The notes: generated from the letters alone by a model not told the origin. 64,000 bases of DNA from an uncultured Gammaproteobacteria bacterium (GCA_964430295.1 CAYSEV010000003.1:6184-70183), one strand, 5' to 3'; numbered from the stretch's first letter, positions 1,088 to 37,196 are shown. Translations and numbers: made by a program.

Positions 1088-1105
1088 CTACCAACTTATG
1101 TAGTT
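1086..1105. terminator. weak hairpin between convergent genes (aactac-N8-gtagtt)
   Basis: A 6-bp inverted repeat overlaps the stop codons of ORF 92..1087 and dnaN. It is not T-rich on either side. Confidence 0.2.
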
Positions 1106-2199: not shown

Positions 2200-2249
2200 A
2201 GTAATCGAAACGTATCTTTATGTATATCTCTATAGTATTAGTAAATAGA

Positions 2250-2412
2250 AAACGGTGTGGAAAAGTGTATGTCTTTTTGAAATATAAGTCAACGGGCCCG
2301 TAGAACAAAATAAATAAAGAAAAGAAAACACCAAAAAAGCGGTGGAAAAACAGGTGGATAACGTAGTGGATAACTCACCCTCTTATGTGTATAAGTGGAT
2401 AACGGAAAGAAG
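2250..2412. promoter_or_regulatory. oriC: oriC element in the dnaA-dnaN spacer: three DnaA boxes plus an AT-rich stretch
   Basis: GTGGATAAC (reverse complement of TTATCCAC) occurs at 2354-2362, 2367-2374 and 2396-2404. A near-box tgtggaaaa lies near 2258. An AT-rich run, aaataaataaagaaaagaaaaca, sits at 2300-2330 as a candidate DUE. The position between dnaA and dnaN matches the B. subtilis-type bipartite origin. Confidence 0.7.
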
Positions 2413-14126: not shown

Positions 14127-15623
14127 ATGAATATACTCAAATCCTCACATCCTTACATGATACTCATATCATTACTTCTGTGCGTGTTTATATGGCTTTG
14201 TTTTCAGGTAAATACATTTTATGTCCCAAATTCTGATTTTTTAAATTACTTGAATGTTGGGCACAGAATACTTATTAATCCATTTGATCCCTATATAACC
14301 AGCGCACCACTATATTCTATTCTTGTCTACGTATTAGAAATAATTCTTCCAATAAAACATCCAGGTATTATAGGCGGTATTATAGTAAACATACTTTTTT
14401 TTATCACTTCGCTCATATTTCTTTGGCTACTTTCAAAACGTTGGATGAATAATTATGCATTATTACCCGTCCTTTTTTTTGGCATTAATCCGGTTATGCT
14501 TTATGTTGTCCTTCAACCGTCGAATATTCCCCTATCAGTCATGCTTATTCTTATGGCGTTGTTCTACTATACATCGAAGCCAACGTTTGCGTATGTATTG
14601 GTCTTAATTGCATCTTTGACCAGAATAGAATCAATTCCAGTGCTGTTTGTATTTATTATAAGTGATCTTATATTCTACAAAAGACTGCGTTGTTCAAAAA
14701 CAATCATCGTTGCATCATTATGTATACTTGCTTGGTATATCCGTCCAATTATTCCACACGATAATTATATAGATGAAATAAAATTCCGAAGAGATGAAAT
14801 ACCTAATCTTGCATTCATCAGAAATTCATTTATTCGAGCACCTTTTTCGTATGACTTGCTCAATGCTAATAAGCCTATCGAGGCTTTCTCATCTGAGACT
14901 ATTGCGATTCTTATCATAATACTATGGATCATATTGGGGCTGCGCCGATATTATAAGCTAGATAAAGTGCGGTCTTTCGTGATTATTGGATATGTATTGG
15001 GATATATTTTTATTCATACAGTTTTTCCTGACAGGGTGATTAGGTATAGCTATCCCCTTCTTCCTTTTGTATATATGTTGATATGTTGGCCTGTTATATA
15101 TATTAATACTATATATAGTTCCTATACAAGGAATCTTTCAATTTTCTTAGTAAGTGTCCTCGCATTAGGTGTATGTTGTTTTTCAGTTGTAAATGCTCCC
15201 TTTTACATAAATGATCAAAGATGGGATAGGGCTGAAAGGCGGTTGGTTGCAGAATGGCTAAATAATAATATTCATTCCCAAACTGCAGTCTATACTTTCG
15301 AACATTACGTCTTTTCTTATTATGTAAGCAATCCTTTTATTGATTATATCGATACCACAGAAAGCAAAGCCTGGACAGATGATTTGTGCACACAAAAGGG
15401 AGATATCTATGTGGTATTTGATAATCAGACAGAATCGGATGGCGAATACTTCGATCATTTAAACGGTTTGGATTTTTTTCATCAGTTCAAAAATAATAAA
15501 TCAGCAATGTCAAAATTGAAACTAATTAAAACAATACGCATTGAAAAGCGCCACGCGGAAATATATAAATTTATTGAGAATCCAATAAATCCTTGGTGCT
15601 CATCCATATTCAATGAAACATAG
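14127..15623 (+). CDS. polytopic integral membrane protein, GT-C-like (candidate polyprenyl-phosphate-sugar-dependent glycosyltransferase)
   Basis: 498 aa with about 11 hydrophobic helices in the first 330 aa and a hydrophilic C-terminal domain. It is followed directly by a DPM1/GtrB-like GT2, the classic GT2 plus GT-C pairing. No confident family assignment from sequence alone. Confidence 0.4.
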   Translation: MNILKSSHPYMILISLLLCVFIWLCFQVNTFYVPNSDFLNYLNVGHRILINPFDPYITSAPLYSILVYVLEIILPIKHPGIIGGIIVNILFFITSLIFLWLLSKRWMNNYALLPVLFFGINPVMLYVVLQPSNIPLSVMLILMALFYYTSKPTFAYVLVLIASLTRIESIPVLFVFIISDLIFYKRLRCSKTIIVASLCILAWYIRPIIPHDNYIDEIKFRRDEIPNLAFIRNSFIRAPFSYDLLNANKPIEAFSSETIAILIIILWIILGLRRYYKLDKVRSFVIIGYVLGYIFIHTVFPDRVIRYSYPLLPFVYMLICWPVIYINTIYSSYTRNLSIFLVSVLALGVCCFSVVNAPFYINDQRWDRAERRLVAEWLNNNIHSQTAVYTFEHYVFSYYVSNPFIDYIDTTESKAWTDDLCTQKGDIYVVFDNQTESDGEYFDHLNGLDFFHQFKNNKSAMSKLKLIKTIRIEKRHAEIYKFIENPINPWCSSIFNET

Positions 15624-16365
15624 AAATAAGTATCATCCTAAAATCGTTATAATTATTCCCGCATATAATGAGTCAAGATCATTGCCAAAGCTCCTCCAAT
15701 CTATATTGAAACACAAAAATATTCATACATGTCTCGTTATTGATGATGGTTCATCAGATGGGACAGCGGATATCGCAAAACTATCTGGAGCAACTGTTCT
15801 TAAATTACCCGTAAATATGGGATCAGGATGTGCGTTATATAAAGGTATTGAATACGCCCATAAAATACACGCAGATATTGTTGTAGCATTGGATGCAGAT
15901 GGTCAACATGATCCAAAATATATACCATTATTGTTGAAGCATATACAATCAGATAAAGATTATATTATCGCAAGCAGATATATAAAACCAACGAATTACA
16001 GCACTCAAAAAAATCGTGTGATTGCCACAAAGATTATATACCTATTGTTCAATAAGTTGCTTCATATAACCGTTCATGATCCAACTTCAGGATATCGGGC
16101 TTTTGGAAGTAAAGTTTTGAAAGAATTGTCTAGCAAAAATAAATTATATTTCCCTGAACCTGAGATTATTCTCACACTTTCATTTAAAGGCTATAATATT
16201 CACGAAGTGTCAGTCCCGATGTCTCCACGTCAGTATGGGGCCTCTACCATCACGTTGACAAAAGGGATAGTATTACTTTTATATATAATAATAAAAATTC
16301 TGTACTTCAGTATCACAACCCACTGTAAGCTGTATATGTCGAAACTGAGTCAATTATTAAAATAG
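15613..16365 (+). CDS. glycosyltransferase family 2, polyprenyl-phosphate sugar synthase-like (DPM1/GtrB/ArnC type)
   Basis: 250 aa. IVIIIPAYNESRSLPKLL, then DDGSSDGT, then DADGQHDP (the DxD region). C-terminal hydrophobic helix. Confidence 0.8.
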   Translation: MKHRNKYHPKIVIIIPAYNESRSLPKLLQSILKHKNIHTCLVIDDGSSDGTADIAKLSGATVLKLPVNMGSGCALYKGIEYAHKIHADIVVALDADGQHDPKYIPLLLKHIQSDKDYIIASRYIKPTNYSTQKNRVIATKIIYLLFNKLLHITVHDPTSGYRAFGSKVLKELSSKNKLYFPEPEIILTLSFKGYNIHEVSVPMSPRQYGASTITLTKGIVLLLYIIIKILYFSITTHCKLYMSKLSQLLK

Positions 16366-18360
16366 TGTTGGAATCTGGTCGATAATTGAAAGAGTTCTCT
16401 CAGCATCTATTCCAATAGTGTCAAAATACCACTTAAGGCTTTGATATCTTGGACGATTTTCTAATTCTACAAGTTCGAGCGCTTTTTTTCGGGAAATGAC
16501 TCCCTCTCGAATCTGATTACTGCGAAGACCATCATTTTCAGTAAAGCCTTGAACCCTATAATATATATAATTATAGAAAGCTGGAGTCCCATCATCGATT
16601 CTCCATGTCGCAACCGTATCTGCTGGGGTTTCCCACTCAAACTTTTTGAGAGTATGCAAAATTTTCTGTTCATCCCATTTAATATAATGCCACAAGTATA
16701 CAAAATCATGAGGCATCAAGTATGTTGATGCGTATGCCCCTGCGCTATCAATTAATGAGGCATTTATATAGAGCGGATTTCGGATAAATTGTAGAATATA
16801 ATACCTCAAAAGTTGAAATTTCCCATGCATTGATAGATTATGAATTACACCGTTTGGAGTTCCGTCAAATATTCCATAATAACCGAATTTAAAACGCTCA
16901 TCCTCAAGTTGATTTCCCCTTGAGTATATGACTAGATTTATGCCAGTTTGCTTTTTGAGTCTCTCTACATAATATTCAGCCTGTTTATCTCCCGCCATAA
17001 GAAGTGTAACCATCCCCAAATCGGGTTTATGTAACCAGGCTTCGATATTTTTTTTGATATTTAATCTCTTTTGTTTAATATCTGCCGAAACCCAAATATG
17101 CTCAACCCCTAATGCAGCGCACATTCGTGATTGATTCCTCCTGGCTATATCAGTTATCATTCCCCAGTCATATGTGTACGCTATAGGATTTAGTTTTAGA
17201 ATGTGTTTGACAAAATAAAGACCATAACTACTGTCTCTCCCTCCGCTCAATGGCACTATGCAATTCTTTTTTGACGATTGCGTTTGGAATGTTGAAATGT
17301 ATTTTTTAAGTTCGTTTACGCCCAATGGTTGTTGTTTCTTATATGTATTGCAAAAATTACAAATACCATTTCGATCAAATGTTATTAGAGGCATTGTCTC
17401 AGGCATAATACATTTAGAACATCTTTTTATATGTGATATAGCCTTATAATTTGGAATGTGTGACTTTATTTTGGCAATAGAATTATTGTTAAATGTATTT
17501 AGAGAATTATTTACACGCACTGTAATGTTATTAAACACGTGGGGCGATGTGACGCTTTGTCTGTTCTGCACACAGCCGAAACGTGACACGGAATCATATG
17601 TCTGTGGTGTTACAGAAAACTCTTTGATCTCTTTACACCCGATTTGCACAATTACTCCCGTATTTGCAGCAATATTTTTGATGGTTAATTGCAGCCTGGT
17701 ATTTAAAAATTTGGAAATAATACGCTTTATGAAGTATTCTTCAGAGGCAAATATAAGAATATTATGTATTTGAACATAGAAAATTGAGCCAGTATTCGTA
17801 GCAAGGATAATTGAATTTTCAATAGTGTCAGCAAGAGCTATATTTGATTCACCATAAATTTCAGAAAATATTTTTTGAACTGATGATATGGAGCTATATC
17901 CTTTTTGTTTGAATAATTCATACAGAAGGATGAATAATTCACTGTCAGTTTTATTTTTTTTATGTAACGTTGGATATTTTTTAAAAATCTGATCTTCGTT
18001 TACTACTATTCCATTGTGTATAACTATGGAGTTTTTCCCTTGAATTGGCTGATTGTTCTGATCTTCCCTCGAATCCCCATTAGTAGCTAATCTTGAATGT
18101 CCTATGACGAAGAATGAAGTACTATTTGAATTAGAGGAAATTTCCCGAAATAATTTATTCCACTGAATTGATTTTGTGAGCACTGCCGCTTTTTCGGGCG
18201 CCTTAATAATTGTTGTTGATTTTTTGATTGAATAGGCAATTCCGGAAGCATCGCTGCCTCTTGATTCAGATAATTGAAACAAGGTCTTAATTATATCCTC
18301 GATATTAAGATCTTCTTTGGATACGTCAGTGTTTTTTATAAGGCCAAGTATTCCGCACAT
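16357..18360 (-). CDS. fusion protein: N-terminal class-II glutamine amidotransferase (Ntn) plus C-terminal PP-loop N-acetyl-sugar amidotransferase (WbuX/PseA-like)
   Basis: 667 aa. MCGILGL N-terminal nucleophile. The middle region has a Cys cluster CSKCIMPE...CNFCN followed by the PP-loop PLSGGRDSS, the architecture recalled for the LPS N-acetyl sugar amidotransferase family. Confidence 0.6.
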   Translation of the reverse strand: MCGILGLIKNTDVSKEDLNIEDIIKTLFQLSESRGSDASGIAYSIKKSTTIIKAPEKAAVLTKSIQWNKLFREISSNSNSTSFFVIGHSRLATNGDSREDQNNQPIQGKNSIVIHNGIVVNEDQIFKKYPTLHKKNKTDSELFILLYELFKQKGYSSISSVQKIFSEIYGESNIALADTIENSIILATNTGSIFYVQIHNILIFASEEYFIKRIISKFLNTRLQLTIKNIAANTGVIVQIGCKEIKEFSVTPQTYDSVSRFGCVQNRQSVTSPHVFNNITVRVNNSLNTFNNNSIAKIKSHIPNYKAISHIKRCSKCIMPETMPLITFDRNGICNFCNTYKKQQPLGVNELKKYISTFQTQSSKKNCIVPLSGGRDSSYGLYFVKHILKLNPIAYTYDWGMITDIARRNQSRMCAALGVEHIWVSADIKQKRLNIKKNIEAWLHKPDLGMVTLLMAGDKQAEYYVERLKKQTGINLVIYSRGNQLEDERFKFGYYGIFDGTPNGVIHNLSMHGKFQLLRYYILQFIRNPLYINASLIDSAGAYASTYLMPHDFVYLWHYIKWDEQKILHTLKKFEWETPADTVATWRIDDGTPAFYNYIYYRVQGFTENDGLRSNQIREGVISRKKALELVELENRPRYQSLKWYFDTIGIDAERTLSIIDQIPTLF

Positions 18361-18383
18361 GTCCTAAATTGGATATATAATTA

Positions 18384-21380
18384 TCACTTGATGATAAATA
18401 ATAGGTCGGTTGTAAACATGGGAGTCTGTATATCCATCTTCCCTTTTATGACCTGTTGATGAAGAATTATTTCTCCATTTTCTGGATTAATCCAGTATAT
18501 TGTACCATCCTTATGCACCTCAAGTGAGAGCGTAGCTCTATTTTTTTCTGGATTAAATATTTTTGTATACACATATCCGTATATGATATCTGCGGATATA
18601 ACTGAAAACACCTTATGCTTTTTATTATTGGATGTAATATCGTATTTTTGAATATCAGTCCCTATATCAGCTATGTATGTAGAGAAAATTGAAGCGTAAG
18701 ATCTTTCTATAGGTCCTAAATATACATTGGATGGCCCAGTTTTGTTTTCAAAATACACATTCGGCATATTCCAAGATATTATTGACGCCTGTCTGAAAAA
18801 ACTTAACCAGAGTCTAATCCTGTATCTGATAGGAGAAAATATATCCCAATTTGCGAAATTATTCCCCTGTTCACTAAAGATCATCGGTTTATCATATTTC
18901 ACAAATTTATCTACCTCTCGGGCAAGATCCTGATCGCAATATTCATTACACTCTCCGCTATACCAGTGATAAGAAGTGGCCTCTATATCACTTAAGTCAG
19001 GTCTCTCCCAACTGGTTGTAATTGGGTGTTTATAGGGGTCTATAGCCCTTATATATGCGGCCATATAATGTATTAGGTCGTCACTGAGTTTGATTTCATT
19101 TGCAAGTTCCCACACATCAACATAGGCTCCGTATCGCGAGACTATATAATCCAGATAATTTTGTAATTGTTTTTTTTGGTCCGTTAATGGAATATCAGAA
19201 CCATAGGGTAATTCAAAGCTCATGAGGCTCATCCAGGTGTGGTATCTATTTTTCTTTAACGTGCTGAGAATAGAATCAAGCAAGATCCCTTCGTTTACTT
19301 TTGGACCAATATTACCTGATTTTCCGAAATTCCAAAGCATAAAACTACAGTTGCCAGCTCCCCATCTGTATGTATTAAATCCACTGTCAGCGTACGTTGC
19401 TAGGTAGTCTTCCACAGTTGTTGTTTTATAAAATGAATCATCGTCTGATCCTTTAACCTCATCGTCCAACGGCCATGCATTCAATGGGTTTCCATCATGA
19501 TGTAAATCATTTACACAATTTTGAATACCTATTGGTAAGAAGATATTTCCATTTGAACTCGCAAAGTACTTTTTGTTAATCTTTGAGAGGTAAATATAAC
19601 CGGGATTATTGGACTCTGTTACCAGAAAACTTCCTCTTTCCTGTTTGGTCTCAAATATCGAATTAGACAAGAATCTCCACTTCCAAATTCCGACCGTATC
19701 AGGTGAGAATCTAAGCTTCCACGTTTTTATATCATAATAAAACGCTTTTATAGTATATTCTTTATTGATTGGAGAGGTTAAGACAATACTGTATTCTGTG
19801 TTAAGCTGATCGCCCTTTTCTTTATTAGATTTCAATATGAGCTCAAAAATGCCATTTTTTAGTACAAATTTTTGTGGTTGTTCTATCGTTATTTTCAGAA
19901 GCTGTAGCTTGCTGTTGGCTTCATGAATTAAATAATGTATACGTGATATCAGTTCATTAATATAAGATATATTTATAAGATTTCTCTTTGTGATATTTCC
20001 ATGTAAAAAATCCGAATTTAAGCTCGTAATGCTGGTATTTTCTTTATTTAAAAAAAATATATCCTGATTAAAAGATTGTATGGAATCTATATCTATATCA
20101 TCAGAGGTATATTGCCATAACATATCTCCGTTTAGGTGATTTTGAAAGGAAACAACAGTTGATTTATCTGCTTTAGAAATAATAAAAACTCCTCGTTTAT
20201 TAGCTTTTGTTGCCACTGTGTCTATTTTTTTGTTTGTGCACCAATGTACGTCGCCGGAGAAAGACAAAGAACATTGTATTGTTTGGCCCACAATGACTAT
20301 ATTTTTATCAATGATTTGATATGAAAAATTTTGAATATTCGAAAAGGAATGTGACCACAGCTCGACACCATGTTTTGTGTCTAGAGCTACAAGAATTGTT
20401 GCATTAATATTAGAATATGTTACAAGTGCAAAATCTTTAGTTGCTTCCGTAATTCCAAGAGGACTATTATATGAATTATTATATGTCCACTCTTGTTTAG
20501 CAGTATTTGCATCTATACATTCAATTGCATTGTCATCTCGAATCACATATATACATGACACCCCCACTTGTAATGAATTATCAGATGAAGAAATCTCCAG
20601 TAAAGTTTCTCCAGATATTTTATTAAGAAGTTTGTATGTATTCGAATCATCCCAATATCCGATTGTTTTGTGAAATATAGAGGGTTTAGAAAAAAAGTAA
20701 TTATGTAAAGGCACATCCCATATTTTCTTACCGGTTCCCAAATCAATTGCAATAAGTCTGTTTTCGGTCGCACTATTAAGATATACAGTCGCATCATCTG
20801 TAGCAAATCTTCCGAAATGCAAAATTATCTCATCACTTTTATAATACGATGTATCTATTTGTTTTGTCGTATAAGTCCAGTGAAGTGATCCTGTGATTTT
20901 ATTAACAGCGTACAATGTCCCGTTTCTGCTCCCAAATAAGACATCTTGGTCAGTAACCACAGGTTCCGTATCAATTTTAGTTCGATCTGGTGTGGTAAAT
21001 CTCCAAAGTTCATTACCTGTATGTTTATCTAATGAATACAGATTTCCATCAAAATTCGTGAGAAATAGTTGATTATTCTTATCAAATTCGGATAAATAAA
21101 TTGAATAGCTTTGCTCATTGTGCCTCCAACGCAACAATCCGGTTCGTATATCTATAGAGGTCATTACGTTATCAAGTCCGCTATAAAATAAGGAGATGTT
21201 ATTAAAAGTGAGTGAGTGAAAAATTTTAGGAAGCGTTTTATGTGTCGCAACTGGATTTTTAAATGAATATACCCAGCCCGCTGAATTAAATATATTCCAT
21301 AGTAATATGGCCGTGCATACGATAAAACCAAAGAAAAAAATACGTATGATCAGTGCAAAATACTTCTTTATTTTTTGCAT
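18384..21380 (-). CDS. membrane-anchored PQQ-like beta-propeller fused to clan GH-A (GH5-like) TIM-barrel glycoside hydrolase
   Basis: 998 aa with an N-terminal TM helix. Repeated G-LY-(S/A)-(L/V)-D/N-K-x-TG-x-x-(L/H)-W units (LYSLDKHTGNELW, LYAVNKITGSLHW) indicate PQQ-type propeller blades. The C-terminal part carries the GH-A acid/base motif VDVWELANE and the nucleophile motif IFSEQG. Confidence 0.6.
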   Translation of the reverse strand: MQKIKKYFALIIRIFFFGFIVCTAILLWNIFNSAGWVYSFKNPVATHKTLPKIFHSLTFNNISLFYSGLDNVMTSIDIRTGLLRWRHNEQSYSIYLSEFDKNNQLFLTNFDGNLYSLDKHTGNELWRFTTPDRTKIDTEPVVTDQDVLFGSRNGTLYAVNKITGSLHWTYTTKQIDTSYYKSDEIILHFGRFATDDATVYLNSATENRLIAIDLGTGKKIWDVPLHNYFFSKPSIFHKTIGYWDDSNTYKLLNKISGETLLEISSSDNSLQVGVSCIYVIRDDNAIECIDANTAKQEWTYNNSYNSPLGITEATKDFALVTYSNINATILVALDTKHGVELWSHSFSNIQNFSYQIIDKNIVIVGQTIQCSLSFSGDVHWCTNKKIDTVATKANKRGVFIISKADKSTVVSFQNHLNGDMLWQYTSDDIDIDSIQSFNQDIFFLNKENTSITSLNSDFLHGNITKRNLINISYINELISRIHYLIHEANSKLQLLKITIEQPQKFVLKNGIFELILKSNKEKGDQLNTEYSIVLTSPINKEYTIKAFYYDIKTWKLRFSPDTVGIWKWRFLSNSIFETKQERGSFLVTESNNPGYIYLSKINKKYFASSNGNIFLPIGIQNCVNDLHHDGNPLNAWPLDDEVKGSDDDSFYKTTTVEDYLATYADSGFNTYRWGAGNCSFMLWNFGKSGNIGPKVNEGILLDSILSTLKKNRYHTWMSLMSFELPYGSDIPLTDQKKQLQNYLDYIVSRYGAYVDVWELANEIKLSDDLIHYMAAYIRAIDPYKHPITTSWERPDLSDIEATSYHWYSGECNEYCDQDLAREVDKFVKYDKPMIFSEQGNNFANWDIFSPIRYRIRLWLSFFRQASIISWNMPNVYFENKTGPSNVYLGPIERSYASIFSTYIADIGTDIQKYDITSNNKKHKVFSVISADIIYGYVYTKIFNPEKNRATLSLEVHKDGTIYWINPENGEIILHQQVIKGKMDIQTPMFTTDLLFIIK

Positions 21381-21418
21381 TATTAATAAATATCCAACAT
21401 CTTATATCTATCCAAAAA

Positions 21419-22273
21419 TTATTTTAATATGTCTGTAATAATTGGGTATATCGCCACATTGTTAAGATAAATCGGAATTGACCAGCCGATTATAATTGGT
21501 TTATCTTCTAGGAACATATACGTATCATCTTGTTTTGTAACCCCAAGTTGCAATGTTAAAAATACATCTTTTTTCAACGGATCCTCTGTAACATTAGTTC
21601 TTCCGTCAGTCGTACTGACCACTCTTTCTGCAGGCCTCACATCGACATCAAGGATTTTTGCAATTATTTTTCCCGATGGATCTTTAATTTCAGCATTTTT
21701 CTCAACCGCATTTGCTATCCATGGTTCAACTCCTCGTGTGTATGCTGAATACGATGACCATGTATCGATCAGTCTTGCTTTTATAGTAACTGTAAAAATA
21801 CGTCTGGTATCAGAAATGCCGTCAATACCAGAAACTATTCCGTGGATATTGGAACCGTTAATTGTCACATCAATAGTTCTGCCGATTTCAAGAGGTTGAT
21901 ATAAAAATGTATATTTCTTTTGTTTTGCTTTGTATTTAGCTTTGACAGAGGCAGTAATCCACATCTCTTTATTTTGGTATCCCCACTTCCGTATATTTAA
22001 TATTTCCAAATTTTTTTTGCCAAAATTATCAAATTGAACATCACCTATCCGTATCTTATCAGCGACCCAAAATGGAGCATCTCCCCCACCATTGTTGGGA
22101 AAGTATGTTGGTGAGTTTATTACTTTAAACTCAATCTTAATCCACTTATCTTGATTTAATGATGTAGATATCAGAAACAGCAATATGCTCACCAATACAA
22201 CCGTAAAAAACCAATCCAAAGGCTTTAATTTTTTTAAATTAAGAAGAGTGTCAGAAAGCTGAATATTCACCAC
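21419..22273 (-). CDS. hypothetical membrane-anchored extracytoplasmic protein
   Basis: 284 aa. N-terminal TM helix FFTVVLVSILLFLIST. Beta-rich, no recognisable motif. Co-directional with the GH fusion and the Wzy-like gene. Confidence 0.45.
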   Translation of the reverse strand: MVNIQLSDTLLNLKKLKPLDWFFTVVLVSILLFLISTSLNQDKWIKIEFKVINSPTYFPNNGGGDAPFWVADKIRIGDVQFDNFGKKNLEILNIRKWGYQNKEMWITASVKAKYKAKQKKYTFLYQPLEIGRTIDVTINGSNIHGIVSGIDGISDTRRIFTVTIKARLIDTWSSYSAYTRGVEPWIANAVEKNAEIKDPSGKIIAKILDVDVRPAERVVSTTDGRTNVTEDPLKKDVFLTLQLGVTKQDDTYMFLEDKPIIIGWSIPIYLNNVAIYPIITDILK

Positions 22274-22289
22274 ACTATTATACCTGAAA

Positions 22290-23828
22290 TTAAACTGCGG
22301 GCAATATCGATAAGAAAACCCACAACCATCCGATTATTTGTTGCTCTGTAAGTATAGGATAAAACTGAGAAAGTATCATAAAAGATATAATTGGAAGAAG
22401 GTAAATTGAATGATGCCCTATATACCCTTTGGAATGTTCGTTTATTCCACTCAAAAAATATTTTTTGGAATAACACAAAAAAAGCATAAAAGATAATAAT
22501 CCAGCATACCCGGACGCCACAAGAATTTGAGCGAATAGATTATGTGGTTGTGTGGGATATGAACTAAAACCACCTATTGTTTCAAGTAAAATTTGTGGAA
22601 ATGTTCCGAGTCCTATGCCAAAAGGATTTTGTGATACTATCTGAAAACTCTGTATTATGAGGTTCCAACGAAAATTCGCTCCTCCATCTTGTCCAAATGT
22701 AATAATAAATTGTGACAAACGCGGGATAACAAGAATGGGAAGCACAAGTACACCGATAATTCCTGATATTTTATATAATACAGGCAGCTTATTGGTTTCT
22801 CTTTGTTTTTTATATATATACAATAATTCAATTGCTACTATAATCCAAGACAACCTACTTGCTGATAATAGGAGCGCGACAAAAGAAGCAATAAATGCAA
22901 ATGAAGAGATTTTTTTTCCGAAATTTGACGTCCGTTTTGCAATTGAATAGTAGAATAGAAGCGGTAATATGAGTGCTATAAAAAATCCCAGAGAGTTTGG
23001 ATGCGAGAAAGTTCCTTGAATTCTGACAAATGAAATATCTTCGCTTGCAATATGAAGAATGCTGTCTGATAGAGACGGGTCAGCCGAATTTTCAATAAGC
23101 TTTCCTAAAGGACCTTTATTTATAAATTGGAGTATACTGATGAATCCCTCGAATATACCCAGTGCTGAAAAGATCGGGAGAAAATGATGAGTAACCCAAT
23201 ACCCTAATTTATACTGTTGAATATAGTAATACAGGTAAATATATAGTGAAAATTGCATAAGAAGAAGAAAGGATAACAATGGTATAGGTGAGATGATACT
23301 AGAAAATATATTTAATATAAGAAATGTTCCAATAAATATATCCTTAGTTTCGATTTTAGAAGTGGAGATCTTTATCTTTGGCAAATAAATAATATCTCTT
23401 AAAGATAGATATATAAGTATTAACACCATAAATCCAGTTAGCGATATACCCACAGACATAATAAAAGGTAATCTTCCATTTACATACTCAGGGGATACAA
23501 CCAGAAAATCGATGCTTTTTCCGCTTTGAAAAGGTAAACAAAATATAGAGGAATATAACAAAGCTGTCCGGATGGATTTGAAAACGTAAAGAAGACCACA
23601 AATGAAAAGTATAGCGAGAGCAAGAAGTATTTTATTATTAGGCGCGTATAACAATATGAAAAGAAACAGGATAGACCACCAGAATAGTTTTTTTTCAGTC
23701 GACCAACTATCTATGGTAGTGCGTACGCTACCTATTAAAGTATATAATCCGTTCATAGTATGAAAGATGCATTGGTAATTATACTGTATGATCATCCCAA
23801 AGAGCATACTGCCGACTATTGTACGCAA
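22290..23828 (-). CDS. O-antigen ligase/polymerase-like (Wzy_C) polytopic membrane protein
   Basis: 512 aa and multi-TM. The segment SASRLSWIIVAIELLYIYKK is typical of the Wzy_C loop-helix region. The start is ambiguous: an alternative Met 25 at 23756 removes the 69-nt antisense overlap with the next gene. Confidence 0.55.
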   Translation of the reverse strand: MRTIVGSMLFGMIIQYNYQCIFHTMNGLYTLIGSVRTTIDSWSTEKKLFWWSILFLFILLYAPNNKILLALAILFICGLLYVFKSIRTALLYSSIFCLPFQSGKSIDFLVVSPEYVNGRLPFIMSVGISLTGFMVLILIYLSLRDIIYLPKIKISTSKIETKDIFIGTFLILNIFSSIISPIPLLSFLLLMQFSLYIYLYYYIQQYKLGYWVTHHFLPIFSALGIFEGFISILQFINKGPLGKLIENSADPSLSDSILHIASEDISFVRIQGTFSHPNSLGFFIALILPLLFYYSIAKRTSNFGKKISSFAFIASFVALLLSASRLSWIIVAIELLYIYKKQRETNKLPVLYKISGIIGVLVLPILVIPRLSQFIITFGQDGGANFRWNLIIQSFQIVSQNPFGIGLGTFPQILLETIGGFSSYPTQPHNLFAQILVASGYAGLLSFMLFLCYSKKYFLSGINEHSKGYIGHHSIYLLPIISFMILSQFYPILTEQQIIGWLWVFLSILPAV

Positions 23829-24929
23829 ACTAGTTTGTTTTTTGAGAAAGAAAATTATGTGCTAGATGTTCTAATAAAAGACAGCTCTTCAATTAAAGAG
23901 ATACTTTACGGTAAAAAGAATATTCATATTATCCGCAAAGTTACTAATCGACGCATAGCATTCACGCCGCTTTATCTGATCCCCTTTAAACGTATCAGAA
24001 TAATTGAAAATCTAAATATGCAAATAAATATGTTTTGTATTCGTTTACTAATAACGGTAATTGAATTCTTCAAGAAATTTTCTAAAAAATATTTATGGGT
24101 ATACAGCCCGGATCAAACTTCAATTGCTTATTTATTTGATCAATCATATTACCTTGTTTACGATTGCGTTGATTATCATGGAGATGAAAATAATTCAGCA
24201 AGCGAAAGTATGCTTATACAACGAAGTAACACCATTGTTGTCAATTCTATGTCACTGTATAACATATATAAGCAGAAATATCCCAACGCACTATTATCGC
24301 CGTCAGGATTTGATTTAAGCACATTTGAAAAAAACGCCCGAGCAAAAAAAAGTACAAAAAGCACAAATCCGATTATCGGATACATAGGAGGCATAAATTC
24401 CAGATTGGATTTTAAGTTATTAGAAAAGATCATTCGCTCAAATCCGGACATCAGATTTACCTTTATTGGGCCTATCCAACAAAGAGAATCAACCTATATA
24501 TTTCAGTCTTTAGTTCTCCCTAAAATATCAAAATTGTTGTCTACTGAAAATGTTCAATACATCCCATACATGCCAAGGGAAAAAATAATTTCATATATAT
24601 CACAATTTTCGATTTCAATTATTCCATATGATAGTTCCCTGCCGTTTAATCGGTATAGTTTTCCGATGAAAATTATTGAATATTTTTATATGGGTATCCC
24701 TGTGCTTTCTACTCCAATTGACGAAATTAAGAGAATGTCACAATTTGTTTCGATTGGTAATACTCCTGCCAAGTGGAATTTTTACATCAGAAAGTTATTA
24801 AAAAAGCCGCAGAGCCTATATCTCAAAAAAAGAAAAAGGGTGTACGCTATACAACAAAGCTGGGATAAAAAATTTAATTATATTATGCATTCTATTGAAC
24901 CAAACAATATCATATTGGATAGAAAATAG
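23760..24929 (+). CDS. glycosyltransferase, GT-B fold (GT4-like)
   Basis: 389 aa. IGYIGGINSRLDFKLLEKII ... IIPYDSSLPFNRYSFPMKIIEYFYMGIPVLSTP resembles the C-terminal GT-B nucleotide-binding half. The start may be downstream of the annotated Met. Confidence 0.5.
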   Translation: MKDALVIILYDHPKEHTADYCTQTSLFFEKENYVLDVLIKDSSSIKEILYGKKNIHIIRKVTNRRIAFTPLYLIPFKRIRIIENLNMQINMFCIRLLITVIEFFKKFSKKYLWVYSPDQTSIAYLFDQSYYLVYDCVDYHGDENNSASESMLIQRSNTIVVNSMSLYNIYKQKYPNALLSPSGFDLSTFEKNARAKKSTKSTNPIIGYIGGINSRLDFKLLEKIIRSNPDIRFTFIGPIQQRESTYIFQSLVLPKISKLLSTENVQYIPYMPREKIISYISQFSISIIPYDSSLPFNRYSFPMKIIEYFYMGIPVLSTPIDEIKRMSQFVSIGNTPAKWNFYIRKLLKKPQSLYLKKRKRVYAIQQSWDKKFNYIMHSIEPNNIILDRK

Positions 24930-32210: not shown

Positions 32211-33581
32211 TTAGTCCTCAATAATTTGAGCTGAAAAATATAGGTCACTTGAATGGTATGGTCGATTTTTGTTACACATAAAGCTGTATAACTTTCCCAA
32301 AAATGTTGCATCAAAGGCTTTTAATTCTGCCGCTAGTATATCCATTTCTGTCTTAAATGTCTTTCCGGCTGTACCATCCGTACGATCAAATATGTAAGAC
32401 ACGATATCATGTCTCTTTTTCTTTTCTATTACAGATTCACCAGACGTTTCAATATTTGTTATTATACGAAAGAGTTCACTAAAACCTCTTGCCGTATATG
32501 ATATTTTTTGAACTTCATGTATAGTCGGGAAATATTCACCCCATATCCCTTGAGATTTATCCGGATATAGAAAAATTGCAGGTTTACCTAGAGATAAAAA
32601 ATCCCCCGCTATGGTTGATAGATCTGTAACAAGAATGTCTGCTGCAATAAGTGTCTTATTCGGTCCAAGGTAGTTTGACCGTGTAGAATCATCAAAATAC
32701 GTATTTGCATATTTTTTGAGTGTTTTTATGATAGGGTCTTTTATTTGGTACTGATATATACAAATAGGATGAGGCCGAATGATTACATTAAAATTCATTT
32801 GTTTTGCATAAGAGCAAAAACGTTCTAAATTCCTAATATCATCTCGTTTTTTTCCTATCCCCCATATTTTTTGTGATTCCCAACTAGGGGCATAAACGAT
32901 CGTTCTCCTACTTGGATCTAGATTATACTCCTGTAATATTTTGTGCTTATCTAAGGTGTTTGTGTATAGCGTGTCATTTAATACTCTTCCTATGATTCGT
33001 ATTCGCTTATCGTTTGCATGTAGAGGTGTTCGCTTTATTACTTCATCTTTTAATAATGATCCAGTGACAAAAATTCTTGCATATTTAGAAAAAGATGGAA
33101 TATTATCTGCGTGAAAATACGGTGCAGGTCCAATTTCAAATAATTCACTATGAAATACCTGCACGATATTTTTTCGCATATAAGTTTCAATAATTGGCAT
33201 TGGCATATCTATCAACCAAATTGCACGATTTCCGTATATATTTTTAAGGAAGAGTACATATGGTATAAATGCACGTTGCCATTGTGAATGTGTTATATGT
33301 TCTGACGGCTTAAGAGTACAATATTCAGGTGAACAATGCCCCAAATAATGCGTTAGAAATGGCATGTTGAATAGATACTTGTTTTTAATCCATTTAGGAG
33401 AGTTATTATAACTTTGCGCATTTGTATATATCATTATCGGGAGAATTGAATTCGAATCTATTAAATGTTTATAGTAGGCGTCCATATTTCTACCACATCC
33501 TAGATCCGATTCAATCGCCATAATCATGCATGGAACTTTATTATTTCCCCGGCGAGTAAAACTGTTAAATTCTGATATCAT
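32211..33581 (-). CDS. CDP-glycerol/CDP-polyol phosphotransferase, TagB/TagF family (teichoic-acid-type polymerase/primase)
   Basis: 456 aa. IVYAPSWES compares with the TagF YAPTWR block, and VIIRPHP compares with the TagF KxHP block. The C-terminal GT-B-like half has the conserved His. Confidence 0.55.
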   Translation of the reverse strand: MISEFNSFTRRGNNKVPCMIMAIESDLGCGRNMDAYYKHLIDSNSILPIMIYTNAQSYNNSPKWIKNKYLFNMPFLTHYLGHCSPEYCTLKPSEHITHSQWQRAFIPYVLFLKNIYGNRAIWLIDMPMPIIETYMRKNIVQVFHSELFEIGPAPYFHADNIPSFSKYARIFVTGSLLKDEVIKRTPLHANDKRIRIIGRVLNDTLYTNTLDKHKILQEYNLDPSRRTIVYAPSWESQKIWGIGKKRDDIRNLERFCSYAKQMNFNVIIRPHPICIYQYQIKDPIIKTLKKYANTYFDDSTRSNYLGPNKTLIAADILVTDLSTIAGDFLSLGKPAIFLYPDKSQGIWGEYFPTIHEVQKISYTARGFSELFRIITNIETSGESVIEKKKRHDIVSYIFDRTDGTAGKTFKTEMDILAAELKAFDATFLGKLYSFMCNKNRPYHSSDLYFSAQIIED

Positions 33582-35961: not shown

Positions 35962-37196
35962 TTTTGAGCGATAGAATAGGTTAGAGCACCCTGATTAAGT
36001 ATTGTAACAACATCTCCGATATTCATATCTTTGGCATAACATGCATACCCCCATAAATCACGTGTTGTGCACAAATTTCCGTACATAGTATTTATAATTT
36101 CTTTGTCTGATGGTCTAGTCAGATTTATGGCCGGAAAGTATTCATACATATATCGCTGCCACCCGACCATATTTATGCCGCCATCAAGAATAGATACCGC
36201 AGTGTTTTTAATATCGACGATTGATAACACAATATGCATTGCCCTATTACAGATAATTCTGCCTGGTTCTGCATAGTAATCTGGTGTTATGAGAGGTTCT
36301 AAATACGTATGTATTGCTTTTGAGATCGCACTAGCATATTTTTTGAGTTCTATTGCTTCTCTTAGTTTAAATTCATTTGAAAATCTTCGTTTTACATCAT
36401 CATATGAACTATGTACGTTGTTGTGTGAATCTTTAGAGAATTCGTATGGGTAATATCCCTCTGATTCATACGGTTCAAATCCCCCACCGAAATCTATATA
36501 TTTTATAGTTTCTCTTTCTTGTTTAGAAAAGTGACTAAGTTGATCAGCTAATTCCTTAATACTTTCAACATATGCAACTGCATCTTTATTTCTGGATGCA
36601 TGAAAATGTATGCCCTGAATATGTATGTACGGATACTTGTAAGCCTGCTTCCAAAATACACGAAGCTGATCAATATCTATGCCGAATTTAACCCATTGCG
36701 GCAATGCTTTTACGTGTATACGTACACCAATGGTTATATGTTTTTTAAGATTGTTGGTTATTGTTCCTAATCGATCTAGTTCAAGAAAACTGTCAACGTG
36801 AATGCGTACATATTTTGTATGTTTAACCGCATATAAAAGTTCATGATTTTTTTTCCCTGGACTATAATATAGTATATTTTTACACCCTAATTTTATTGCA
36901 TCAGTAAGCTCAACGCCGCTTGCAACATCAAGACCATACCCATGTAAGAGTGCTTCTTTAACCAATGGTCGATAATTATTTATTTTATATGCATAAAACG
37001 GGTGAAAGTTAGGTATATGTGTTGAGAAAATATTAACAAAATTTTCTAAGTCCTCCTGAAGCGCCTGTTTGTCGAAGACATAAAAAGGAGTTTCATATTT
37101 TTTTGACAACATCAAGATTTTTTCACGGTTGTTTTTTGTAAAAGATTTCACAATCTTCACGAATTGTCGCTGATGTTTAATGTCGCCAGTTTTCAT
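35925..37196 (-). CDS. PLP-dependent fold-type III decarboxylase (Orn/DAP/Arg decarboxylase family)
   Basis: 423 aa. YAYKINNYRPLVKEALLHGYGLDVASGVELTDA is the N-terminal TIM-barrel PLP-Lys region. IDFGGGFEPY is the G-G-G-F/L motif. ATGA overlap with the ABC ATPase stop. Confidence 0.7.
   Translation of the reverse strand: MKTGDIKHQRQFVKIVKSFTKNNREKILMLSKKYETPFYVFDKQALQEDLENFVNIFSTHIPNFHPFYAYKINNYRPLVKEALLHGYGLDVASGVELTDAIKLGCKNILYYSPGKKNHELLYAVKHTKYVRIHVDSFLELDRLGTITNNLKKHITIGVRIHVKALPQWVKFGIDIDQLRVFWKQAYKYPYIHIQGIHFHASRNKDAVAYVESIKELADQLSHFSKQERETIKYIDFGGGFEPYESEGYYPYEFSKDSHNNVHSSYDDVKRRFSNEFKLREAIELKKYASAISKAIHTYLEPLITPDYYAEPGRIICNRAMHIVLSIVDIKNTAVSILDGGINMVGWQRYMYEYFPAINLTRPSDKEIINTMYGNLCTTRDLWGYACYAKDMNIGDVVTILNQGALTYSIAQNWIQNIPNVYTL

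What the first reader, a model, noticed from the sequence alone, without database searches (positions are those of the whole stretch)
18384..21380. PQQ-type beta-propeller fused to a GH5-like (clan GH-A) hydrolase, membrane-anchored, inside the glycan operon
The C-terminal domain carries both GH-A catalytic signatures in the right order and spacing: VDVWELANE (acid/base Glu after Asn) and IFSEQG (nucleophile Glu). The N-terminal ~400 aa is a multi-blade PQQ-like propeller with repeated LY-x-(L/V)-(D/N)-K-x-TG-x-x-(L/H)-W units. Many exopolysaccharide systems include a dedicated periplasmic hydrolase that trims or releases the polymer (PslG, BcsZ, PelA, AlgL analogues). A propeller-GH5 fusion that is co-transcribed with a Wzy-like gene and an amidotransferase is not a described architecture, to my knowledge.
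Basis: partly seen in the sequence, partly recalled or inferred. Interest (0 to 1): 0.55.

Follow-up and report, generated by a model that had tools for sequence, protein, structure and literature searches.

The report
Propeller-fused GH5 glycanase in glycan cluster
A candidate-phylum (Gottesmanbacteria-like) bacterium encodes a membrane-anchored, outward-facing protein that joins a BamB-like beta-propeller to an intact GH5-type sugar-chain-cutting domain; because this gene travels with surface-glycan assembly genes in many related genomes, it most likely trims or releases the cell's own surface polysaccharide, which makes it an uncharacterised variant of a well-known theme.

Summary
ORF 18384-21380 (-) encodes 998 aa: an N-terminal TM helix, a BamB/PQQ_2-type beta-propeller (aa ~35-470), a DUF5060 beta-sandwich, a (beta/alpha)8 barrel (aa 612-905) and a C-terminal beta-sandwich.

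- **Closest solved relative:** ManDH5, a GH5 beta-mannanase from Dictyoglomus (profile E 7e-38; Foldseek E 7e-33, TM 0.75).
- **Catalytic residues:** E762 of VDVWELANE aligns with ManDH5 E303, the residue its depositors mutated to Q. E837 of IFSEQG aligns with the GEFG Glu. Seven canonical GH5 residues are kept in 50-54 of 54 fused homologues.
- **Recurrence:** at least 46 of the top 150 family clusters (50% identity) and 13 of 80 genome loci share the architecture. All six Patescibacteria-labelled loci do.
- **Context:** fused genes sit in glycan-assembly clusters, usually next to Wzy_C and DUF4330. Six fused relatives carry a cytoplasmic GT26, GT2 or GT4 domain ahead of a TM helix and the propeller.
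- **Unfused relatives:** they lack the window's cluster genes, and the two loci examined have unrelated or catabolic-looking neighbours.

Most likely it is an extracytoplasmic retaining beta-glycanase that processes the cluster's own glycan, as PslG, BcsZ and CcsZ do. Substrate and propeller role are inferred. I rate it a new variant of a known kind, of moderate interest.

The parts
18384..21380 (-). Whole gene: 998-aa TM-anchored propeller-DUF5060-GH5-like protein
   Evidence: ORF list. An identical protein is in the NCBI collection on an 80.8-kb contig. Full-length AF2 model: pLDDT 88.3, pTM 0.81.
21288..21377 (-). N-terminal signal-anchor / TM helix (aa 2-31), preceded by Lys residues; N-in, C-out topology inferred
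   Evidence: Helix 2-31 in the model; hydropathy peak at aa 4-22; translation QKIKKYFALIIRIFFFGFIVCTAILLWNIF. 44 of 53 fused homologues have a hydrophobic segment in their first 70 aa.
19971..21278 (-). BamB/PQQ_2-type beta-propeller (aa ~35-470): 8 sequence repeats, with about 40 strands in the model (8-10 four-stranded blades)
   Evidence: Pfam PQQ_2 1.4e-22. Repeat HMM finds 8 units. Foldseek to BamB structures E ~1e-20. Best PDB sequence matches are propeller ectodomains of membrane kinases (7eq5) and BamB.
19911..19967 (-). Linker helix (aa 472-490) between the propeller and the catalytic module
   Evidence: DSSP on the full-length model.
19617..19892 (-). DUF5060 beta-sandwich (aa 497-588)
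   Evidence: Pfam PF16586 E 1.4e-8, above the gathering score. Present in 33 of 33 family members. Aligns to the N-terminal domain of ManDH5.
18666..19547 (-). (beta/alpha)8 barrel, clan GH-A / GH5-like catalytic domain (aa 612-905)
   Evidence: AF2 secondary structure gives 8 strand/helix alternations. Foldseek top hits are ManDH5 GH5 mannanase entries, E 7e-33, TM 0.75. The family profile hits GH5 mannanases 3ziz (1.6e-6) and 3wfl.
19095..19121 (-). VDVWELANE: N761-E762, predicted catalytic acid/base at the end of beta-4
   Evidence: Translation. E762 aligns with ManDH5 E303, which is Q in the 9gpc 'E303Q' entries. N761 is kept in 54 of 54 and E762 in 53 of 54 fused homologues, and both in 33 of 33 sequences of A1.
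18864..18881 (-). IFSEQG: E837, predicted catalytic nucleophile on beta-7
   Evidence: Translation. Aligns with the GEFG Glu (E392) of ManDH5. Kept in 32 of 33 and 52 of 54 homologues.
18390..18614 (-). C-terminal beta-sandwich (aa 923-997)
   Evidence: DSSP on the models. Aligns with the C-terminal domain of ManDH5. Weak Collagen_bind_2 hit.
21419..22273 (-). Upstream neighbour: DUF4330 protein (284 aa, single N-terminal TM), the most conserved partner gene
   Evidence: Pfam PF14221 6.6e-11; one TM. A homologue is present in 9 of 14 fused loci, and also in L028. Gap to the GH gene is 38 nt.
22290..23828 (-). Upstream neighbour: Wzy_C-family polytopic membrane protein (512 aa), a polymerase or ligase
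   Evidence: Pfam Wzy_C 2.7e-16; about 9 TM segments. Conserved next to DUF4330 and the fused gene.
16357..18360 (-). Downstream neighbour: class-II GATase fused to a WbuX-like N-acetyl-sugar amidotransferase; same strand, 23-nt gap; lineage-specific and not a conserved partner
   Evidence: Pfam and NCBIfam hits. Absent from all 14 fused loci compared.

Best explanation
The gene encodes a type-II (N-in, C-out) membrane-anchored ectoenzyme. Its C-terminal module has three parts: a DUF5060 sandwich, a (beta/alpha)8 barrel and a C-terminal sandwich. This module is a catalytically competent retaining beta-glycanase of the ManDH5-like branch of GH5 (clan GH-A), with E762 as acid/base and E837 as nucleophile.

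The enzyme acts outside the cytoplasmic membrane on the glycan made by its own cluster. The possible actions are trimming, chain-length limitation, or release of the polymer or lipid-linked intermediate. This is the role that PslG, BcsZ, CcsZ and plant KORRIGAN play for their polymers.

The BamB-like propeller is a non-catalytic module. It either binds the glycan or docks the enzyme onto the conserved partners Wzy_C and DUF4330.

Shown: the domain architecture, the fold, conservation of the catalytic residues, conserved gene neighbourhood, and GT fusions. Inferred: topology, activity on the cell's own glycan, a beta-linked and possibly manno-configured substrate, and the propeller's role.
For: **Enzyme identity**
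- Single-sequence and profile matches to ManDH5 (E 9e-12 and 7e-38).
- Foldseek E 7e-33, TM 0.75 to ManDH5; its PDB titles call it a 'beta-D-mannanase of GH5 family' with an E303Q mutant bound to mannotetraose.
- E762 aligns with E303 and E837 with E392.
- R672, N761, E762, H805, Y807, E837 and W870 fall on strands beta-2, 4, 6, 7 and 8 of the model. They are kept in 31-33 of 33 family members and 50-54 of 54 fused homologues.

**Extracytoplasmic location**
- A single N-terminal hydrophobic helix follows a Lys-rich start.
- All six GT-fused relatives have a predicted TM segment between the GT and the propeller; five have one and P0224 has two.

**Link to biosynthesis**
- The gene lies on the same strand as Wzy_C, DUF4330 and the amidotransferase, with gaps of 16, 38 and 23 nt.
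- Distant fused homologues (27-40% identity) sit in equivalent clusters with Wzy_C, GTs, an epimerase and, in most, DUF4330, an AsnB-like enzyme or a radical-SAM enzyme.
- Across the 14 fused loci compared, DUF4330 is present in 9, Wzy in 7 and GT1 in 7. Unfused loci show almost none. The apparent exception, L028, proved to be fused.
- Independent N-terminal fusions of GT26 (3), GT2 (2) and GT4 (1) onto the cassette.
- Two unfused relatives, in Planctomycetes and Chloroflexi, have unrelated or catabolic-looking neighbours.

**Propeller as a binding or docking module**
- Its closest relatives are BamB and the sensor ectodomains of membrane kinases.
- One relative has ricin-type lectin domains in the same position.

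**Precedent**
- CcsZ is a GH5 enzyme encoded in the clostridial cellulose-synthase operon (PMC7710045).
- PslG, PelA and PgaB are exopolysaccharide-biosynthetic hydrolases (PMC4928890 and PMC5933820, listed).
Against: - No activity, substrate or product is known for any fused member.
- The closest characterised relative, ManDH5, is a degradative mannanase at only ~20% identity, so specificity cannot be transferred.
- No Pfam GH model reaches threshold on the barrel, and dbCAN could not be run.
- Co-transcription is inferred only from spacing and strand. The promoter/terminator scan was no better than shuffled sequence.
- The window cluster contains an ABC-2 exporter as well as Wzy_C proteins. 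The assembly route is therefore unclear, and so is the step at which a hydrolase would act.
- Several fused loci (L008, L010, L019, L021) showed no homologues of the window's neighbours at the thresholds used. Some of these contigs are short.
Confidence: 0.6

Rival explanations
1. Transglycosylase or ligase. The retaining GH5 domain mainly transfers the glycan, or a segment of it, to another acceptor such as a cell-wall polymer, another chain or a protein-linked glycan. It would remodel or anchor the polymer instead of hydrolysing it, as fungal Gas/Crh enzymes and plant mannan endotransglycosylases (GH5_7) do.
For: The two-Glu retaining machinery is intact and conserved, and retaining clan GH-A enzymes can transglycosylate (established knowledge). 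The gene is tightly coupled to Wzy_C, a polymerase/ligase family, and to GT domains. No LCP-type ligase and no Wzz/PCP protein appeared in the Pfam scans of the cluster.
Against: The nearest characterised relative is a hydrolase; ManDH5 crystals contain mannobiose after co-crystallisation with mannopentaose (titles). No sequence feature that distinguishes transglycosylases was tested. Most biosynthesis-cluster GHs studied so far are hydrolases (PMC4928890, PMC7710045).
Confidence: 0.15
2. Outward-directed degradative enzyme. This would be a cell-surface beta-mannanase or glucanase used by the episymbiotic or scavenging CPR cell to digest environmental or host-envelope polysaccharides. The propeller would act as a substrate- or host-binding module, and the location in the glycan cluster would be incidental.
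For: ManDH5 and the large unfused part of the family (1,088 clusters at E<=1e-30) look degradative. They carry secretion signals, PKD, TSP3, Por_Secre_tail or ricin modules, and one locus sits next to a solute symporter. Patescibacteria depend on external or host resources (general knowledge).
Against: Synteny with Wzy_C, DUF4330 and GT genes is conserved across fused homologues as low as 27% identity. Six independent fusions to cytoplasmic glycosyltransferases are hard to explain for a purely catabolic enzyme. No sugar-uptake or catabolic genes were found beside the fused genes.
Confidence: 0.17
3. Non-catalytic scaffold or lectin. The GH-like barrel would be a pseudo-enzyme that only binds the glycan. 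Alternatively, the propeller would be a true PQQ quinoprotein that oxidises sugars.
For: No Pfam GH model reaches threshold on the barrel. The propeller hits PQQ-family models.
Against: Both catalytic Glu residues and five further active-site residues are kept in 50-54 of 54 fused homologues, which argues for selection on catalysis. Scores for PQQ-dehydrogenase models are 48 bits against cutoffs of 480 or more, and the best structural matches are cofactor-less BamB propellers.
Confidence: 0.04

Closest known systems
ManDH5, GH5 beta-D-mannanase of Dictyoglomus thermophilum (PDB 9gmj, 9gpa, 9gpc-g)
   Same: The same three-part catalytic module: DUF5060 sandwich, (beta/alpha)8 barrel and C-terminal sandwich. 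Foldseek E 7e-33, TM 0.75; profile E 7e-38. The acid/base (E303/E762) and nucleophile (E392/E837) align.
   Different: Only ~20% identity. ManDH5 is 568 aa and has no propeller. It is described as a degradative mannanase and was not reported here in a biosynthetic cluster. The substrate of the window protein is unknown.
BVU_0362 of Bacteroides vulgatus (PDB 4n0r), 'putative glycoside hydrolase'
   Same: DUF5060 plus a GH-A barrel architecture. Profile E 1.6e-18, Foldseek E 3e-22.
   Different: Uncharacterised, from a gut Bacteroides, with no propeller and ~15% identity.
CcsZ (GH5) of the clostridial cellulose synthase operon ccsZABHI
   Same: A GH5 endoglycanase encoded inside a polysaccharide-biosynthesis operon of a bacterium without an outer membrane, proposed to act on the nascent polymer (PMC7710045).
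   Different: A different branch of GH5: CcsZ did not appear among the PDB profile hits. It is synthase-dependent (BcsA-like), not in a Wzy_C/ABC context, and has neither propeller nor DUF5060.
PslG (GH39), BcsZ (GH8), PelA, PgaB: exopolysaccharide-biosynthetic hydrolases
   Same: Extracytoplasmic hydrolases encoded in the biosynthetic cluster and acting on the cognate polymer. PslG is also clan GH-A and membrane-anchored (PMC4928890 and PMC5933820, listed; details from established knowledge).
   Different: Different GH families, Gram-negative periplasmic setting, no beta-propeller, no fusions to glycosyltransferases.
BamB and the PQQ_2 propeller ectodomains of membrane Ser/Thr kinases (e.g. 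PDB 7eq5)
   Same: The same repeat family and fold: Pfam PQQ_2 1.4e-22, Foldseek E ~1e-20. All are extracytoplasmic and cofactor-less.
   Different: Not an orthologue of BamB: TIGR03300 scores 68.7 bits against a cutoff of 285. Here the propeller is fused to an enzyme, and it may have more than 8 blades.
KORRIGAN (plant GH9 membrane-anchored endoglucanase of the cellulose synthase complex)
   Same: A type-II membrane-anchored endoglycanase needed alongside a polysaccharide-synthesising machine. This is a functional analogy from established knowledge.
   Different: An unrelated fold (GH9, (alpha/alpha)6), eukaryotic, with no propeller.

Membership tests
Clan GH-A / GH5 | (beta/alpha)8 TIM-barrel catalytic domain | tested here: met
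   The AF2 model (pLDDT 89.5, pTM 0.91) shows 8 alternating strands and helices over aa 612-905. Top Foldseek hits are GH5 ManDH5 entries, followed by other clan GH-A barrels such as GH2.
Clan GH-A / GH5 | Asn-Glu acid/base at the C-terminal end of strand beta-4 | tested here: met
   N761-E762 follow strand 756-758. E762 aligns with ManDH5 E303, the site of the E303Q mutant. Both are invariant in 33 of 33 family members.
Clan GH-A / GH5 | Nucleophile Glu on strand beta-7 | tested here: met
   E837 lies within strand 833-843 and aligns with ManDH5 E392 (GEFG). Kept in 32 of 33 and 52 of 54 homologues.
GH5 | The further conserved GH5 residues: Arg on beta-2, His on beta-3, His-x-Tyr on beta-6, Trp on beta-8 (from established knowledge of GH5) | tested here: met
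   R672 (beta-2), H805 and Y807 (beta-6) and W870 (beta-8) are conserved. No conserved His was found after beta-3; that position is mostly Phe. So 7 of the 8 residues are present.
GH5 | Significant sequence similarity to accepted GH5 members | tested here: inconclusive
   The family profile hits ManDH5 (called GH5 by its depositors) at 7e-38 and GH5 mannanases 3ziz at 1.6e-6 and 3wfl at 5e-4. However, Pfam Cellulase PF00150 is absent for the query and sub-threshold in 1 of 33 members.
GH5 | CAZy/dbCAN family and subfamily assignment | not testable with these tools
   No dbCAN or CAZy library was available, and the ManDH5 paper is not in the held library.
GH140 (apiosidase-like, PF13204 plus Collagen_bind_2) | Match to the PF13204 catalytic model and the PF12904 C-terminal domain above threshold | tested here: not met
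   PF13204 scores 17.3 bits (cutoff 26.5) over only 57 residues. PF12904 scores 13.9 bits (cutoff 22). Nine of 33 family members give sub-threshold PF13204 hits. No GH140 structure appeared among the PDB profile hits.
PQQ-dependent dehydrogenases (quinoproteins) | Full-length match to quinoprotein dehydrogenase models | tested here: not met
   TIGR03075 scores 48.2 bits against a cutoff of 480, and TIGR03074 scores 17.7 against 833. Only the repeat-level PQQ_2 model matches. PQQ-ligand residues were not examined individually.
BamB (outer-membrane assembly factor) | Equivalog-level match | tested here: not met
   TIGR03300 scores 68.7 bits against a cutoff of 285.2, and NF008351 scores 64 against 423. 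The resemblance is at fold level only.
Polysaccharide-biosynthesis-associated glycoside hydrolases (PslG/BcsZ/CcsZ class, a functional class) | Encoded within, and conserved with, the biosynthetic gene cluster | tested here: met
   Synteny with Wzy_C, DUF4330 and GTs in most fused loci, plus GT fusions.
Polysaccharide-biosynthesis-associated glycoside hydrolases (PslG/BcsZ/CcsZ class, a functional class) | Extracytoplasmic catalytic domain | tested here: inconclusive
   Predicted only, from a single N-terminal TM with Lys-rich N-terminus and from the GT-TM-propeller order in the fusions. There is no experimental topology.
Polysaccharide-biosynthesis-associated glycoside hydrolases (PslG/BcsZ/CcsZ class, a functional class) | Cleaves the cognate polymer | not testable with these tools
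   This requires biochemistry on the native glycan.

The most novel reading that the evidence does not exclude
The propeller-DUF5060-GH5 cassette would be an obligatory extracytoplasmic subunit of a Patescibacteria-type glycan assembly machine (Wzy_C + DUF4330 + propeller-GH5) and not an accessory trimming enzyme. In some lineages the machine is welded to the cytoplasmic glycosyltransferase as a single GT-TM-propeller-GH5 polypeptide. In this reading the retaining GH5 domain sets chain length, or performs the transfer or ligation step by transglycosylation. It would replace the Wzz/PCP co-polymerases and LCP-type ligases, none of which appeared in the Pfam scans of these clusters, and the propeller would dock it onto Wzy_C.
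Probability: 0.2. Interest if true: 0.65.

Novelty: new variant of a known kind. Interest (0 to 1): 0.45.

Why it matters
Hydrolases encoded in polysaccharide-biosynthesis clusters are a known kind (PslG, BcsZ, CcsZ, PelA, PgaB). They are useful as probes of the polymer and as anti-biofilm tools. This gene adds three things.

1. It is a previously undescribed and widespread architecture: a TM anchor, a BamB-like propeller, DUF5060 and a GH5-like barrel. It defines a conserved module with Wzy_C and DUF4330 in Patescibacteria, whose surface glycans are essentially uncharacterised.
2. Single polypeptides join a cytoplasmic glycosyltransferase to an extracytoplasmic glycoside hydrolase across the membrane. 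This is an unusually direct genomic statement that synthesis and cleavage are coupled.
3. It offers a practical handle. The recombinant ectodomain could be used to identify and dissect the unknown glycan of uncultivated CPR bacteria.

It does not overturn current understanding, and it does not by itself make a long-standing question testable.

Tried and rejected
- **ManDH5 literature:** no paper is in the held library, so subsite and specificity details could not be transferred.
- **DUF5060 literature:** one incidental mention only.
- **DUF4330:** no paper mentions it, and there is no solved relative by single sequence or by a 10-sequence profile.
- **Promoter/terminator scan of 16000-24200:** counts equal to shuffled sequence, so uninformative.
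- **tRNA scan of the window:** nothing found.
- **GH140 (apiosidase) membership:** considered because of weak PF13204 and Collagen_bind_2 hits. Rejected as sub-threshold, and the PDB profile hits favour GH5.
- **Quinoprotein and BamB orthology:** rejected on model scores.
- **L028:** it first looked like an unfused gene in a Wzy/DUF4330 context. ORF re-analysis showed a 1340-aa product with propeller repeats, so it is fused.
- **NJ tree of the catalytic domains:** too crude to decide whether the fused forms have a single origin. They fall in three basal groups outside the unfused clade.
- **Lipocone-superfamily paper:** checked for propeller/EPS contexts and found not relevant.


Full report
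**1. Observation**

VDVWELANE occupies aa 754-762 (window 19095-19121) and IFSEQG occupies aa 834-839 (window 18864-18881). Pfam finds PQQ_2 on aa 72-225 (E 1.4e-22) and DUF5060 on aa 511-572 (E 1.4e-8, above the gathering score). It also gives sub-threshold hits to Apiosidase/GH140 (aa 735-791) and Collagen_bind_2 (aa 917-987). A repeat HMM built from these finds eight units, at aa 61, 102, 144, 197, 282, 318, 397 and 438. The N-terminus (QKIKKYFALIIRIFFFGFIVCTAILLWNIF) is a hydrophobic helix preceded by lysines. An identical protein exists once in the public collection, unnamed, on an 80.8-kb NCBI contig.

**2. Structure**

The C-terminal half (aa 490-998) was modelled with a 33-sequence alignment and gives pLDDT 89.5 and pTM 0.91. 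The full-length protein gives pLDDT 88.3 and pTM 0.81. The order of elements is:
- TM helix, aa 2-31
- all-beta propeller, aa ~35-470, with about 40 strands; this fits 8-10 four-stranded blades, of which 8 are detectable by sequence
- linker helix, aa 472-490
- DUF5060 beta-sandwich, aa 497-588
- (beta/alpha)8 barrel, aa 612-905
- C-terminal beta-sandwich, aa 923-997

The barrel strands are at aa 617-620, 670-674, 714-718, 756-758, 787-788, 802-808, 833-843 and 865-871.

**3. What the catalytic module is**

The best solved relatives by sequence are 9gmj and 9gpc, deposited as 'DUF5060 domain-containing protein' (E 9e-12 with the single sequence, 7e-38 with the family profile). Foldseek identifies them as ManDH5, 'a beta-D-mannanase of GH5 family from Dictyoglomus thermophilum'. 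The set includes an E303Q mutant bound to mannotetraose (E 7e-33, TM 0.75).

Counting along the printed alignment, query E762 (the Glu of WELANE) pairs with ManDH5 E303, and the 9gpc sequence indeed reads WEFWNQ at that site. Query E837 (IFSEQG) pairs with E392 (VGEFG). The family profile also reaches classical GH5 mannanases: 3ziz at 1.6e-6, 3wfl at 5e-4 and 3pz9 at 0.011.

Across 33 family members, R672, N761, E762, H805 and W870 are invariant. Y807 is kept in 31 of 33 and E837 in 32 of 33. These residues fall on beta-2, beta-4, beta-6, beta-7 and beta-8 of the model. This is the canonical GH5 constellation (from my knowledge of the family) except for the beta-3 His.

No Pfam GH model reaches threshold on the barrel. 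At family level, Apiosidase gives 9 of 33 sub-threshold hits and Cellulase PF00150 gives 1 of 33. The domain is therefore securely clan GH-A and ManDH5-like. 'GH5' rests on ManDH5's deposited name and on the mannanase profile hits. dbCAN was not available.

**4. What the propeller is**

Its closest sequence relatives in the PDB are propeller ectodomains of membrane protein kinases (7eq5, 7evf) and BamB. By fold, BamB is closest (E ~1e-20), and no solved chain spans both halves of the protein. Scores against quinoprotein dehydrogenase and BamB equivalog models are far below their cutoffs: 48 against 480, and 69 against 285. 'PQQ-type' therefore names only a repeat class. Nothing supports cofactor binding or catalysis by the propeller.

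**5. Family size and recurrence of the fusion**

The word-indexed search with the whole protein found only two other full-length relatives: P0002 at 40% identity and P0003 at 27%. Searching with the C-terminal half gave 39 relatives, six of them further propeller fusions. The exhaustive profile search gave 13,642 representatives at E<=1e-3 and 1,088 at E<=1e-30.

Of the best 150, 44 have a propeller homologous to the query's lying N-terminal to the GH module. At least two more (P0241, P0285) have PQQ_2 propellers by Pfam. In the species-representative genome set, 147 loci encode the family. Of the 80 kept, 13 are fused (L006-L010, L012, L014, L019, L021, L022, L028, L029, L080). That set includes every locus labelled Gottesmanbacteria, Microgenomates, Paceibacterota or Patescibacteria. 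The unfused majority comes from Planctomycetota, Chloroflexota and other phyla.

In 54 fused sequences the active-site residues are kept as follows: N761 54, E762 53, E837 52, R672 53, H805 52, Y807 50 and W870 52. The fused proteins are therefore under selection as enzymes.

**6. Context**

*Organism and extent of the cluster.* The window's DnaA (2413-3780) is 74-79% identical to DnaA proteins named Candidatus Gottesmanbacteria. The organism is therefore a Gottesmanbacteria-like member of the Patescibacteria. From 3900 to ~40335 the window is one glycan-biosynthesis region. It holds two Wzy_C proteins, GT1, GT2 and GT4 enzymes, an epimerase, an AsnB-like enzyme, a radical-SAM/SPASM enzyme, methyltransferases, a TagF-like glycerophosphotransferase, an ABC-2 exporter pair and a Bac_transf initiating transferase.

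*Local arrangement.* The target gene is the third of four same-strand genes: Wzy_C 22290-23828, DUF4330 21419-22273, the target, and a GATase/WbuX-like amidotransferase 16357-18360. The gaps are 16, 38 and 23 nt. Consensus promoter and terminator scans were uninformative, so co-transcription is an inference.

*Conservation in relatives.* Contigs carrying P0002 and P0111 show the same set of neighbours: Wzy_C, DUF4330, GT4, an AsnB-like enzyme, an epimerase and a long Wzy_C. The radical-SAM gene is also present beside P0002. The P0003 contig keeps DUF4330, an epimerase, radical SAM and a long Wzy_C. The P0142 and P0143 contigs keep Wzy_C, GTs and an epimerase, and have a stand-alone WecG/TagA GT26 adjacent or nearby.

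*Systematic comparison.* I ran tblastn with the window's neighbours against all loci. In the 14 fused loci compared, DUF4330 was found in 9, Wzy in 7, the divergent GT1 in 7, and AsnB and GT4 in 6 each. The WbuX-like amidotransferase was found in none. Unfused loci had almost none of these. The one apparent exception, L028, turned out to be fused. Two unfused loci examined have unrelated or catabolic-looking neighbours, such as a sodium:solute symporter and a xylose-isomerase-like TIM barrel.

**7. Glycosyltransferase fusions**

Five representatives with extra N-terminal sequence, plus P0003, carry a cytoplasmic-type glycosyltransferase in front of the propeller:
- GT26 (WecG/TagA): P0003, P0172, P0260
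- GT2: P0221, P0224
- GT4/GT1: P0267

Each has a predicted TM segment between the GT and the propeller. Three different GT families fused independently to the same cassette. This is the strongest evidence that the cassette belongs to glycan biosynthesis. It also supports the topology of GT inside and propeller-GH5 outside. One relative (P0206) has ricin-type lectin domains in the position of the propeller. That suggests the N-terminal slot is used for binding modules.

**8. Mechanism proposed**

*Shown:* a TM-anchored protein with an intact and conserved retaining GH-A/GH5 active site, fused to a BamB-like propeller, genetically coupled to Wzy_C, DUF4330 and glycosyltransferases.

*Inferred:*
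- N-in, C-out topology.
- The enzyme cleaves beta-glycosidic bonds in the cluster's own product after export. It would trim, limit the length of, or release the polymer, by a double-displacement mechanism with E837 as nucleophile and E762 as acid/base.
- The propeller binds the glycan or docks the enzyme on Wzy_C/DUF4330.
- The relation to a beta-mannanase, and the repeated association with GT26 enzymes (beta-ManNAc/ManNAcA transferases, from my knowledge of TagA and WecG), hint at a manno-configured beta-linkage. This is speculative, and the window itself has no GT26.

*Precedents for hydrolases in biosynthetic clusters:* CcsZ, a GH5 enzyme in the clostridial cellulose synthase operon (PMC7710045), and PslG, PelA and PgaB (PMC4928890 and PMC5933820, listed).

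**9. Rivals**

- **Transglycosylase or ligase (0.15).** This is compatible with the retaining chemistry and with the lack of detected Wzz or LCP proteins in the cluster. It is not distinguishable in silico.
- **Outward-directed degradative mannanase or glucanase (0.17).** This fits the unfused family, but conserved synteny and the GT fusions argue against it.
- **Pseudo-enzyme or true quinoprotein (0.04).** Residue conservation and the model scores contradict this reading.

**10. Novelty and score**

The kind, a glycoside hydrolase embedded in a polysaccharide-biosynthesis locus, is well known. The catalytic module belongs to a family that now has a solved and named member. Four things are new:
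- the TM-propeller-DUF5060-GH5 architecture;
- its restriction to glycan-assembly clusters, mainly in Patescibacteria;
- the conserved Wzy_C-DUF4330 partnership;
- the GT-TM-propeller-GH5 polypeptides.

I found no description of any of these in the searchable literature.

I rate it a new variant of a known kind, with interest 0.45. It is solidly real, conserved and experimentally tractable, but not very surprising to a specialist and not tied to a long-standing open question. The most novel reading still open has probability ~0.2: the cassette is an obligatory chain-length-setting or transglycosylating subunit of a CPR-type assembly machine.

Noticed in passing
window 21419-22273 (-): The DUF4330 protein (284 aa, one N-terminal TM) is the most conserved neighbour of the fused gene and follows a Wzy_C gene wherever gene order was inspected. 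It has no solved relative by sequence or by a 10-sequence profile, and no paper in the library mentions the family. Its role in the module is unknown.
   Followed up: partly
P0003, P0172, P0260, P0221, P0224, P0267 (L004/L005 8001-11444 for P0003): Single polypeptides combine a cytoplasmic glycosyltransferase (GT26, GT2 or GT4), a TM segment, the propeller and the GH5-like module. They join synthesis and cleavage domains across the membrane.
   Followed up: partly
window 1096-3780 and L004/L005 17144-19444: The glycan cluster begins directly beside dnaA/dnaN in the window. The same adjacency to dnaA/dnaN is seen in the distantly related locus that carries P0003.
   Followed up: no
L006, L007 (CAYHHA010000001.1, CAYGFH010000001.1): The two closest genome loci are labelled 'uncultured Gammaproteobacteria'. 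However, a DnaA 91% identical to the window's lies on an 840,518-bp contig, the same length as L007's contig. Named DnaA relatives are Candidatus Gottesmanbacteria, so the record labels look wrong.
   Followed up: partly
window 16357-18360 (-): A 667-aa fusion of an N-terminal class-II glutamine amidotransferase domain (GlmS/PurF-like) with a WbuX-like N-acetyl-sugar amidotransferase. It is absent from the equivalent position in all related loci, so it is a lineage-specific insertion into the cluster.
   Followed up: partly
window 14127-15623 (+): A 498-aa protein with at least 9 predicted TM segments and no Pfam or NCBIfam match. It is conserved in L006 and L007 (45-51% identity) and could be an unrecognised flippase, polymerase or GT-C-type enzyme of the cluster.
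   Followed up: no
window 3900-5909 (+) and 22290-23828 (-); 37193-38844 (-): The cluster has two Wzy_C-family proteins (669 and 512 aa) together with an ABC-2 exporter pair and a TagF-like glycerophosphotransferase (32211-33581). No Wzz/PCP or Wzx family was detected. The assembly route is therefore mixed or unclear.
   Followed up: no
L003 14698-15681; L004 16131-17117: Related clusters contain an RGP-family protein (PF03214, reversibly glycosylated polypeptide / UDP-arabinopyranose mutase-like), which is unusual in bacteria. No homologue was noted in the window.
   Followed up: no
window 40524-43304, 43992-45710, 48061-49431, 51479-54076, 59666-60856 (+): Five large ORFs (396-926 aa) downstream of the cluster have no NCBIfam match. 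The 926-aa ORF also has no Pfam match and no predicted TM segment.
   Followed up: no
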